From: Abditibacterium sp.
Lineage (GTDB): Bacteria > Armatimonadota > Abditibacteriia > Abditibacteriales > Abditibacteriaceae
Reading direction: 5' to 3'
Assembly: GCA_965246885.1 (NCBI GenBank)
Contig: OZ251992.1
Span: 1,088,001-1,152,000, forward strand
DNA: 64,000 nucleotides
Part shown: positions 15,001-18,000 of the stretch, one piece after another
Position numbering within the stretch: the stretch's first letter is position 1
How the letters are laid out: every line of letters begins with the position of its first letter
Made by a program: the position numbers

Positions 15001-18000
15001 TTTGCATCGGCGACGACCCCGCGACCTTCGATTACATCCGCATCGCCGCCGCCCAAGCGCGCCGCGTTGGGATTCGCGCCGTCGGCCACGTCCTCAGCGA
15101 CAAGCTCTCCCTCGAAGAGATCGCCGAGCATATCGAATCGCTCAACGCCGACCCGAAAATCCACGCCGTCGCCCTGCAAACGCCGCTCCCGCCGCACCTG
15201 CACGTCGGCGAAGTCTCGTCCTTCATCCATCCCGACAAGGATGTCGAAGGCTACCACCCGATGAACGCGGGCTACATCCGCCGCAACTCGCCGCGCCTGA
15301 TTCCCACTCCCGCTTTGGGCGCCTTGCAACTGCTCGACGCTTACGGCATTGACCCATCCGGCATGCAAACCGTCATCGTCGGGCGCAACGCCATCATCGG
15401 CAAACCGCTTTCCACGCTCCTCATGGACGTGGACGCGACGGTTATGGTCGCGCATCGCGGCACCGCGAACCTGCAAAGTCTGATTTCCAACGCCGATTTG
15501 CTGATTTTAGGCGCCGCCGTTGACGGGGGATTGCCCGCCAGTTCGCTTAAACCGGGCGTGGTCATTCTCGATTTCGGCATGACCTACGTCGCCGACGGCG
15601 AAGCCGACAAATTGGTGGGCAACGTGGACTTCGACGAAGCCGTCCAAGTCGCCGGAGCCATCACCCCCATGCCCGGCGGCACCGGCCCCATGACCACCAT
15701 CTCGCTCCTCCAAAACACCCTCAAAGCCGCCCTGCTCCAAACCGGAAAGTAATTCCTCTACCTATCTCCCCGGAAGAACGAGGTAACTCTTCCGGGGAAA
15801 TAGGTAAATCTTCCGGAGAAATAGGTAATCTTCCCCCGATTTACCTATTTCCCTGACCAAAACAGGTAAATCAACGAAAGAAAGAGGTATTTCTCCCGGA
15901 GAAATACCTCTTTCTTTCGCTCGTGGAGGTAATTCCCCGCGCCGCCGCCCTCCGCCAACGCGCCGCCGACGAAACTAATCTGCCCAATTCCTCCTCATAC
16001 TAACCCCACGCCAACAGGCGAACAATGGACGAGAACCAAACGCCATGAAAGAAGCACTTTTCGCGGGCCAAGGGCCGCTGACTGAGGACGAAGCCAAAGC
16101 CGAAATTGACCGTTTGGCGCGAGAAATCGCCGGAATGTTGGAGCGCGCCAAGCGTAACTCCGAATAAGCGAACCGCATGGGCCAACAAAACCGCGCCAAA
16201 CTCGCTGAGATGGAGAAGATTCTGGCGTGCTGGAACGATTAATCGGCTGGTTCCGCTTTGGGTGGGACGCGGGCAAAACTCTGGAATCGCACGGTGAGTT
16301 CCTTGAGGAACTTCGGGAAAGCGACAAAGACACTCTCGCCGCAATGCAAGTCCTCGCCGTCCAGAACCAGCAGTTGCGCGACGAACTGCGCCACGAGCGC
16401 GAGCTTCGGCAAAGTGTCACCGCGCTTGCGCGCGGCTAAATTTTGTGGGATACATAAAGGCCGTATGAAAACTTCAGAACTGGTTAAAGAAATCGTTGCC
16501 GATGAACTTGCTGCCGACCCAGCTATCGTCACCCTCAAAGCGCGATTCGTTGAAGATTTAGGCGCTGATTCTCTTGATGTCGTTGAGTTGGTTATGCGTG
16601 TCGAGGAAGAGTTTGAAATCGAGATCTCTGATGAAGACGCGGAGCCAATCTCTACAGTTGGTCAAGCCATCAAATATGTCGAAAGCAAAGTCGGAGTTAC
16701 TACTGATGAACCAAGAGCAGAGAAAATAAAGACAGCAAGGAGACAATCAGTAGACGTTGCCCCTCCTCTTGAGAAGCGAACAGTAGTTTTGGATGACTCG
16801 GAAGATGCTGGAAGCTTTCCACCCGAAAACAACGTTGATAGTAGAAGGCGTATTCCATCTTCTGTTGTCATGCGGCGTGGGCAGCCAGCGTTCAGGCAGG
16901 CGCTTCTTGAAATCTATAACGGGCACTGCGCCATAACGGGATACAATGCAGTTGAAGCATTAGAGGCCGCGCACATCCGCCCCTTTCGCGGCGAACACAC
17001 CGACCATTCCACCAATGGTTTGTTACTCCGTGCCGACATTCACACTCTGTTCGACCTTCACTTGATTAGCGTTGACACCAAGACTATGACTATCTTGCTT
17101 TCTCCTGAACTACTGAAGACCAGCTATCGAATTTTGGCTGGTAAGTCTTTGAGGTTGCCGAAAAATGAGGATTTCCACCCAAGCAAAGAGGCTTTGGAAG
17201 AGCATCGCAAGCAGATGGAAGATTAACTATATTCTCGAAGCCGACACAGATTCTACGACATGGTAGTATTATCAAAGAGGATTCAAATCAATGGGTTTTA
17301 AAAAATACGACGACGCAGGAAAATGGGCAGAAAGTTTTCTGCCGAGTTCGCGGGACATTGCCACTGCTTACCGCCGCGCTCACAGAGCGGCAGTGAGCAA
17401 CCAACGACGTGCTGAGAGGGCGTCGTTGCAACAGCACCGCGCACTGCTAAAGCAACAGGCTCAGATGGCCAAGATGCAAGAGAAACAACGTGCCGCTTAT
17501 GAGGTGGAAGTCTTTGAGAACCGCTTGGCGGTGCTTGTTTCTGTTCATCAAGAATGCGGAGAATCTCTTGATTGGAGCGCCATTGCTCAGGAGCCATCTC
17601 CGGTAGCGCCCATTCGTTCTGATGATTACGAGAGGCAAGCCCGTGAGTTAGCTACTCAGTATCACCCCGGTTTCTTCGTGAAGCTGTTTGGGCAAGAGCA
17701 GAAGCAACGCGACGTTTTAGAAGTTCGTGTCCAACAAGCCATAGTGGAAGACGAGCGCAAACACCAAGAGTTATTGCAGCAACATGGGAAGGAAAAAGCA
17801 GAGTGGGAAACCGAGCGCGATTTAGCTACTCGTATTCTCAAAGGAGAGTGGAAAGCCTATCTTGAAGCTGTTGCCTTGACTAAACCCTTTGCCGATGTTG
17901 AGGAGTTAGGTAGCCACCTCACGATGGTTCAAGGGCGAAAAAATCAGATTGAAGTAAGGCTGCAAGTCAGGAGTGAACGAGTCATTCCACTCGAAATCAA

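What a model noticed while it worked through the whole genome (the two positions that open the first line are those of the whole stretch)
16465..17226. Acyl carrier protein fused to a McrA-type HNH nuclease
A low-GC gene joins a complete ACP (62% to AcpP, attachment serine kept) to an HNH restriction-type nuclease, where such nucleases normally carry a DNA-sensing domain. ACP may serve as a bait or switch for the nuclease.
Evidence so far: Pfam PP-binding 6-72 and HNH_2 155-204. Three further independent clusters with the same architecture at 53-62% identity among the best 120 hits. PADLOC HNH hit.
(Added by a program. Inside this text positions count along the whole contig: contig position 1,088,001 is position 1 of the stretch shown here. 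"Call 12" and the like, gene names such as g00115 and contig names such as C1 are that model's own, and its searches are not shown. The text may have been shortened before it was handed on; [...] marks where a part breaks off. The agent that wrote the report below was given it as the finding of a first reader that could run no searches.)

Follow-up and report, generated by a model that had tools for sequence, protein, structure and literature searches.

The report
Host AcpP copy caps HNH nuclease
A small group of bacteria has attached a well-preserved copy of its own fatty-acid carrier protein to a DNA-cutting defence-type enzyme, in the place where related enzymes carry their sensor, which suggests an untested way of switching a nuclease on through a core lipid-metabolism protein.

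Summary
Confirmed and extended. Window 16465-17226 is one intact 253-aa ORF: an acyl carrier protein (1-77, Ser36 kept), a disordered linker, and an HNH_2 nuclease with all four catalytic positions, closest in fold to TagI and VcaM4I. The ACP is a copy of the family's own housekeeping AcpP (79% to the genome's fab-operon gene). Synonymous sites are saturated against that gene, yet the domain is as constrained as the nuclease, and its Ser36/helix II docking face is near-invariant, so it is neither an accident nor a neutral passenger. Six 90% clusters hold both domains (one frameshifted), with HNH domains in one clade. The fusion is absent from 30 other genomes of the class, lies in a low-GC insert at a defence-gene hotspot, and has no conserved partner gene. 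Best reading (0.45): a solo, mobile defence nuclease whose ACP is the lock and sensor (a bait for ACP-binding phage factors, or a gauge of ACP loading). The trigger is inferred, not shown. New variant of the sensor-HNH kind.

The parts
16465..17226 (+). ACP-HNH fusion gene, 253 aa (P0001)
   Evidence: the ATG at 16465 matches the homologue starts MKT..; AAAGG at 16456-16460
16465..16695 (+). Acyl carrier protein domain (residues 1-77), a copy of the family's housekeeping AcpP; net charge -13
16570..16572 (+). Ser36 codon, the phosphopantetheine attachment site in D-S-L; kept in all 6 fusion clusters
16696..16824 (+). Variable linker (residues 78-120), predicted disordered; the stretch from ACP end to the RRGQ motif is 22-60 aa among homologues
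16825..17223 (+). HNH_2 nuclease domain of TagI/VcaM4I type; H170, N184, H193 and D197 align with VcaM4I H224, N241, D250 and D254
17291..18340 (+). Co-oriented low-GC gene, 349 aa, no Pfam hit (phrog_38135; weak DUF4236-cluster lead); part of the same insert but not beside the fusion in L128
18356..18383 (+). Terminator-like hairpin closing the insert against the 3' end of clpC
18407..21037 (-). clpC, flank; its 3' end carries different genes in each of 5 relatives examined
14886..15752 (+). folD-like gene, upstream flank

Best explanation
A solo, horizontally moving defence nuclease of the two-domain 'sensor + HNH' kind whose sensor slot was filled once, long ago, by a duplicate of the host family's housekeeping AcpP. 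Shown: the architecture, the origin from family AcpP, purifying selection on the ACP, intact catalytic residues, patchy spread in low-GC inserts. Inferred from VcaM4I: the HNH domains dimerise and are a non-specific, toxic DNase unless the N-terminal part blocks them. Inferred here: the acidic ACP (probably phosphopantetheinylated by the host's AcpS) and the segment after it keep the dimer off. When the ACP's helix II face is engaged or its loading state changes, the block lifts and DNA is cut, probably as abortive defence. The trigger could be a phage factor that binds or uses host ACP (bait), or a shift in acyl/holo/apo state during infection (gauge); the data do not separate these two.
For: The ACP is 79% identical to the genome's own fabD-fabG-acpP-fabF gene. 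All fused ACPs nest inside the family's AcpP tree (93/98). Against host acpP pS is 0.80 but pN 0.12. Between two fused genes ACP pN is 0.20 (dN/dS about 0.22), HNH pN 0.185, linker pN 0.48-0.54. Neutral drift to that depth gave at most 43% identity in 3 x 2000 runs, against 80% seen. Of host-invariant positions, 13 of 16 in helix II (35-50) are kept in all 6 clusters, against 3 of 9 in 51-63. An AcpS-family gene is in the genome. The HNH fold matches TagI (Z 14.2, rmsd 2.6, 107 aligned) and VcaM4I (Z 12.2, rmsd 4.0, 124 aligned), and in VcaM4I the freed HNH domain is toxic and non-specific (PMC7897488). In the short-linker members the ACP ends 22-24 residues before the RRGQ motif, leaving no room for a separate inhibitory helix. 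The site at the clpC 3' end holds different genes in 5 relatives, one a type II nicking/restriction enzyme match (E 7.7e-41). L128 has Fic, HicAB-like genes and an MTase nearby. In the P0007 cluster the stand-alone HNH entries P0007 and P0388 carry core changes (I192K; also N184T in P0388) that the fused P0387 lacks; this is a hint only, as they may be contig fragments.
Against: No phage factor that binds or modifies host ACP was found in the papers searched. The helix II-first conservation pattern is what any working ACP fold shows, so it proves ACP-like docking, not sensing. The model shows two independent domains (linker pLDDT under 50, pTM 0.54). In long-linker members an acidic segment of the kind common in this HNH clade (median charge -3 in 188 non-fused relatives) may do the inhibiting without the ACP. 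The family is tiny, several copies are decaying (P0125/P0385 frameshifted, P0386 cut short), and only two loci have genomic context. The HNH module fuses promiscuously (322 N-terminal parts fall into 72 groups, 49 of them singletons).
Confidence: 0.45

Rival explanations
1. The ACP is a docking tag or passive cap, not a sensor. It tethers the nuclease to a host ACP-binding partner, or supplies a soluble acidic N-terminus, much as AcpP is a standing cofactor of MukBEF. The nuclease is controlled by its own linker helix or by DNA state.
For: AcpP is a stoichiometric partner of a DNA machine (MukBEF; PMC8669397, passages) and a reported host factor of Tn7 (title seen only in a reference list). 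The linker is flexible and varies from 22 to 60 aa. Conserved helix II fits any docking role.
Against: No conserved partner gene: the 349-aa neighbour is absent from L128 and from 26 of 26 other family genomes. Without a DNA-reading domain the HNH has no evident self/non-self cue. A passive cap would not need D35-S36-L37-D38 and E41, M44, R45, E47-F50 invariant.
Confidence: 0.25
2. A lineage-specific by-product: a mobile HNH module landed behind a spare acpP copy. The ACP is kept because it still works as a second carrier in lipid metabolism, and the nuclease is a weakly selected or selfish passenger.
For: The HNH module fuses to whatever is common in a lineage (all 19 repeat-domain fusions are cyanobacterial by their record titles; an HU-TPR-HNH is in L087). 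Copies are rare and several are broken. P0386, the ACP part alone, is on 3 contigs.
Against: The HNH is as constrained as the ACP (pN 0.185 at saturated pS), with catalytic residues intact in all full-length members. The fused ACPs diverge far faster than the essential AcpP (54-75% among themselves, median 90% among hosts). No lipid gene is nearby in either locus. The two domains have stayed joined across at least two genera.
Confidence: 0.2
3. It is the endonuclease of a type II restriction-modification pair with the N6/N4 methyltransferase that lies beside it in L128.
For: In L128 an intact MTase gene is divergent from the fusion, 126 bp away, with a 5' MTase fragment on the other side.
Against: That MTase is a family-wide resident (22 of 26 other family genomes, none with the fusion) and was not found in G000 at E 1e-40. 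No MTase is beside the gene in the window. No sequence-recognition domain is present.
Confidence: 0.05

Closest known systems
Two-domain modification-dependent HNH endonucleases TagI (SRA-HNH, 6GHS) and VcaM4I (EVE-HNH, 6YEX)
   Same: C-terminal HNH_2 domain of the same fold (Z 14.2 and 12.2); catalytic positions align; N-terminal domain plus linker ahead of the nuclease; single gene.
   Different: No PUA-fold (SRA/EVE) or other DNA-reading domain; an acidic AcpP copy stands in its place, so modified-base reading is not expected. Canonical His rather than Asp at the third HNH position.
Shedu (DUF4263) nucleases with swapped N-terminal regulatory domains (bioRxiv 10.1101/2023.08.10.552793; abstract and section 8 read)
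   Same: Solo immune nuclease held off by an N-terminal domain drawn from many families, some enzymatic or metabolic (for example thioredoxin folds).
   Different: Different nuclease fold; the section read names no acyl carrier protein (its supplementary table S3 was not seen).
Housekeeping type II FAS AcpP and its non-lipid roles (MukBEF-AcpP, PMC8669397)
   Same: Four-helix ACP fold (rmsd under 1 A to several ACPs), D-S-L site, helix II surface, net charge -10 to -16.
   Different: Covalently joined to a nuclease, dispensable, fast-evolving, outside the fab operon, whose own acpP is intact.
Integrated-decoy model (plant RRS1-WRKY; proposed for bacterial bNACHT11 in PMC11702601, two passages read)
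   Same: A duplicate of a core host protein fused into a putative immune effector, diverging faster than the original while keeping its interaction face.
   Different: No NLR/STAND module; no pathogen factor that targets ACP is known from the papers searched; untested.

Membership tests
Type II FAS acyl carrier protein (AcpP; TIGR00517) | Scores above the family cut-off and has the four-helix fold | tested here: met
   96.2 bits against a cut-off of 70.45; model pLDDT 85-96 over 1-80; rmsd 0.5-1.0 A to solved ACPs
Type II FAS acyl carrier protein (AcpP; TIGR00517) | Ser in D-S-L for phosphopantetheine, and a PPTase in the cell | tested here: met
   S36 in 6 of 6 clusters; PF01648 match in G000, E 1.4e-14
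Type II FAS acyl carrier protein (AcpP; TIGR00517) | Free-standing protein in or near a fab operon | tested here: not met
   Fused to HNH, 1.7 Mb from the fab operon that holds the true acpP
Type II FAS acyl carrier protein (AcpP; TIGR00517) | Is phosphopantetheinylated and carries acyl chains in vivo | not testable with these tools
   Needs mass spectrometry of the expressed protein
Type IV modification-dependent HNH endonucleases (TagI, VcaM4I, McrA) | C-terminal HNH domain with intact catalytic residues | tested here: met
   H170, N184, H193, D197 align with VcaM4I H224, N241, D250, D254; fold match
Type IV modification-dependent HNH endonucleases (TagI, VcaM4I, McrA) | N-terminal domain that reads modified DNA (SRA, EVE, wH, NEco) | tested here: not met
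   Residues 1-77 are an ACP and 82-120 are disordered; no room for another domain
Type IV modification-dependent HNH endonucleases (TagI, VcaM4I, McrA) | Dimerises through the HNH domain and restricts modified DNA | not testable with these tools
   Dimerisation is inferred from PMC7897488; it was not scored here
Type II restriction-modification pair | A cognate methyltransferase travels with the nuclease | tested here: not met
   MTase adjacent in 1 of 2 loci; it is resident in 22 of 26 family genomes that lack the fusion and was not found in G000
Integrated-decoy immune receptor | Fused duplicate of a host protein that keeps its interaction surface | tested here: met
Integrated-decoy immune receptor | A pathogen factor targets the original host protein and triggers the fusion | not testable with these tools
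   No candidate phage factor of this host was on hand; none surfaced

The most novel reading that the evidence does not exclude
A bacterial integrated decoy built from acyl carrier protein. Phages of this family make a factor that binds, modifies or draws acyl groups from host ACP, for example an enzyme for lipid supply or for DNA base hypermodification (phage SP-15 lists an 'acyl carrier protein reductase' among its uracil-modification genes, PMC5977210 Table 2). The ACP-HNH protein lets that factor dock on a fake AcpP and so unlocks a lethal DNase. It would link lipid-carrier status to anti-phage nuclease activation and give a ready bait for finding phage proteins that target ACP.
Probability: 0.25. 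Interest if true: 0.88.

Novelty: new variant of a known kind. Interest (0 to 1): 0.62.

Why it matters
Defence nucleases are known to swap sensor domains, but the sensors described for this HNH class read DNA marks. Here the slot holds a selected copy of an essential metabolic hub protein taken from the host itself. If it works as a lock or bait, it shows that ACP or its loading state is something phages disturb and bacteria monitor. It is also a 253-aa, single-gene, directly testable case of the integrated-decoy idea in bacteria. If it is only a tether, it is still an undescribed non-lipid use of ACP. The limit is its rarity: six clusters, with host placement for two, both in one family.

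Tried and rejected
Complex prediction of the ACP domain against two HNH domains: no answer, score 0.00; no evidence either way. RNA evidence: no RNA holder listed. Run X2 covers both halves without other letters in the listed pieces, but none listed spans 16548-16795. Metagenome scan with P0002 gave 1 fused locus among 5, so only two loci have context; P0003, P0004, P0125 and P0387 have none, and their hosts are inferred from the ACP signature only. Longer forms: none of 106 listed proteins of 444-2000 aa showed PP-binding in the Pfam column, which is cut short in some rows. No phage (9 records matched) or plasmid (1686 matched) record covers 80% of the query. ESM Atlas: best feature score 0.75, a plain HNH cluster. 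The first HNH tree (243 rows, quick) did not put the six fused rows together (3 changes, 2 forced). The 49-row tree did, with P0005-P0007 added after seeing (92/93, not starred); P0125 and P0387 were not in it. Repeated recapture or gene conversion from the host's acpP: P0001 joins its own host's AcpP subclade (99/99), but one origin is not rejected (p-AU 0.48) and synonymous sites are saturated; inconclusive. Loss of P55 in 4 of 6 clusters as a sign of a disabled carrier: rejected, since the Thermus and Bacillus ACPs also have Ser there. The longer TTG start at 16258: rejected, homologues begin at the ATG. First structure prediction with 7 rows was poor (pLDDT 50) and was replaced by one with 81 rows. 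No promoter-like site upstream. Paper searches for a prior description listed nothing on an ACP-HNH fusion; most hits were seen as listings only, and the 2025 restriction review PMC12707154 has 0 occurrences of 'acyl carrier'. The Qst paper 10.1101/577908 (passages) does not show a phage protein binding ACP.

Full report
Observation. Window 16465-17226 (+) translates to one open 253-aa protein, P0001. Pfam finds PP-binding at 6-72 and HNH_2 at 155-204. NCBIfam scores the N-terminus above the cut-off for the housekeeping ACP equivalog TIGR00517, and PADLOC gives HNH PDLC04132 at E 4.6e-17. The gene is 47.6% GC in a 62.5% genome, in the lowest 0.19% of 9163 windows. An AlphaFold2 model from an 81-row alignment has a confident ACP (1-77) and HNH domain (about 135-252), a disordered linker (82-120) and no fixed packing between them (mean pLDDT 83, pTM 0.54).

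The ACP is the host's own. tblastn of the genome finds a 79% identical ACP at C1:2821268-2821056, inside an intact fabD-fabG-acpP-fabF-rnc run (gene names are my reading of the translations). All fused ACPs carry the signature of this family's AcpP and nest inside its tree in a 93/98 branch with 18 of 22 host AcpPs. Residue numbers of P0001 equal those of mature E. coli ACP, so Ser36 is the phosphopantetheine site; PMC8669397 (passages) states this for AcpP. The genome has an AcpS-family gene. An earlier scan note (e1-2462469) calls the phylum Abditibacteriota; I did not check that name.

The family. Among 5.8 billion clusters, the best 120 hits to P0001 held three other fusions. A profile search of 1.84 billion representatives added P0125. 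Cluster look-ups added P0121/P0122, P0385 and the full-length P0387. So six 90% clusters hold both domains (P0001, P0002, P0003, P0004, P0387, P0125, the last frameshifted after the first catalytic His), and P0006 begins in ACP helix IV. A quick tree of 243 HNH domains did not group them. A careful tree of 49 rows grouped the fused HNH domains with the fragments P0005-P0007 at 92/93 (group named). The implied prediction, that those fragments come from fusions, was then borne out for P0007 by P0387. One origin is the simplest reading. The fusion was found in 0 of 30 other genomes of the class and 0 of 60 relatives. P0002 lies on contig L128, whose L13 is 91-92% identical to genus g6 and 61% to G000, so the gene occurs in at least two genera of the family, patchily.

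Selection. Between the two fused genes with DNA, the ACP part has pN 0.20 and pS 0.57 (48 synonymous sites, dN/dS about 0.22), the HNH part pN 0.185 at saturated pS, and the linker pN 0.48-0.54. Against the host's acpP, pS is 0.80 and pN 0.12. Neutral drift to that depth left 10-24% identity on average (maximum 43% in 3 x 2000 runs) and a stop in over 90% of runs; the observed identity is 80%. The fused ACPs are 54-75% identical to each other, whereas host AcpPs have a median of 90%: constrained, but released from the essential role. Of 49 positions invariant in 22 host AcpPs, those in helix II are kept in all six clusters at 13 of 16, against 3 of 9 in loop II/helix III (Fisher p 0.03 by position; clusters are related, so this overstates). 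Helix II as the docking face for PPTase and partners is established knowledge, recalled. The same pattern holds for ACPs in general, so it shows a working ACP surface, not what docks there.

The nuclease. The only solved sequence match is VcaM4I (E 3.7e-5); by fold, TagI (Z 14.2, rmsd 2.6 A, 107 residues) and VcaM4I (Z 12.2, rmsd 4.0 A, 124 residues). VcaM4I H224, N241, D250 and D254 (PMC7897488, abstract and passages) align with H170, N184, H193 and D197, which all full-length fusions keep. [quoted passage not shown] An intact HNH of this class thus needs a brake. Non-fused relatives usually have an acidic stretch ahead of the domain (median charge -3, n = 188). In P0003, P0004 and P0125 that stretch is missing and the ACP (charge -13 to -16) ends 22-24 residues before the RRGQ motif. 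This HNH clade is a modular effector: 322 N-terminal parts fall into 72 groups, and of 79 relatives from GTDB genomes 7 carry TPR, 5 WD40, 4 LRR, 3 pentapeptide repeats, 3 EVE, none an ACP (79 of the 80 loci, L034 dropped as a fragment).

Context. In the window the gene and a co-oriented 349-aa gene form a low-GC insert that ends at a terminator facing clpC. The neighbour has no Pfam or PADLOC hit, matches phrog_38135, and is in 0 of 26 other family genomes. The clpC 3' flank holds unrelated genes in each of 5 relatives, in G003 a type II nicking/restriction enzyme match. In L128 the fusion sits between a broken 5' piece and an intact copy of an N6/N4 methyltransferase, near Fic and HicAB-like genes. 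That MTase is resident in 22 of 26 family genomes and was not found in G000, so it marks an insertion site, not a cognate partner. No neighbour is shared by the two loci.

Mechanism. Shown: an old, selected fusion of a host AcpP copy with a catalytically complete TagI/VcaM4I-type HNH, moving as a single gene through variable, defence-leaning sites. Inferred: dimer, phosphopantetheinylation, auto-inhibition, release on engagement of the ACP, abortive DNA cutting. I put 0.45 on the ACP being lock and sensor, 0.25 on a tether or cap, 0.2 on a second metabolic carrier with a passenger nuclease, 0.05 on a type II pair. Leads for the bait version are thin: phages encode ACPs (PHROG hits; PMC13573597, two passages); SP-15 lists an ACP reductase among its base-modification genes (PMC5977210, Table 2 passage); and the decoy idea has been raised for bNACHT11 (PMC11702601, two passages). 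None shows a phage protein targeting host ACP.

Comparison and novelty. It works like TagI/VcaM4I in its nuclease and like Shedu in having a swapped regulatory N-terminus (bioRxiv 10.1101/2023.08.10.552793, abstract and section 8), but it fails the type IV membership feature of a modified-DNA reader. Ten full-text searches listed no ACP-HNH fusion. The library lacks most subscription papers, and no supplements were read; Shedu table S3 and similar domain lists could hold ACP fusions. The scan's own notes held no look-alike with this architecture. Verdict: real, undescribed as far as searched, rare, function untested; a new variant of a known kind; interest 0.62.

Noticed in passing
L087:5164-6417 (Phormidium record): The same HNH module fused behind a full HU (Bac_DNA_binding, E 1.3e-28) and TPR repeats: another housekeeping-protein copy on this nuclease.
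   Followed up: partly
L032, L042, L044, L046, L047, L049, L051, L053, L055, L057, L065, L067, L068, L070, L074, L077, L079, L084: In cyanobacteria this HNH domain is repeatedly the C-terminus of TPR, WD40, LRR and pentapeptide-repeat proteins: a possible set of protein-sensing nucleases.
   Followed up: partly
L128, L139, L140, L141: The palindrome CGAGTACTCG is strongly iterated in genus g6 DNA (9 in 10 kb of L128; 7, 5 and 3 in 2-4 kb loci) but occurs twice in the 3.56 Mb of G000; a family-wide orphan N6/N4 methyltransferase is present in g6 and not found in G000. A HIP1-like pairing is possible.
   Followed up: partly
window 15759-15927: Cluster of nested direct and inverted repeats (a perfect 22-bp hairpin among them) between folD and the insert; not spread through the genome (3 blastn hits in 2 bins).
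   Followed up: partly
window 16227-16439 and 23212-23538: Two small related ORFs (31% over 52 aa), each apparently preceded by a short ORF with a similar motif, lie at both low-GC inserts that flank clpC.
   Followed up: partly
window 21283-23829: A second lower-GC insert on the other side of clpC with several unnamed ORFs (200, 150, 184 aa); no Pfam or PADLOC hit above cut-off.
   Followed up: no
G000:C1:1155953-1156168 and L022:5261-6019: Two more carrier-protein-like sequences in the genome: a stand-alone divergent ACP just past the window's end, and a 252-aa ORF with an ACP-like start and a hydrophobic segment; similar ORFs occur in relatives.
   Followed up: no
P0386, P0007, P0388 (cluster of P0387): An ACP-only 84-aa form and HNH-only forms with changed core residues exist beside the intact fusion in one 90% cluster; may be a split, decaying allele.
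   Followed up: partly
L002:1360-1992 (G017): An EVE-like-HNH relative interrupted by a TGA just inside the HNH domain, next to a type III-like methyltransferase ORF (domain names are my reading).
   Followed up: no
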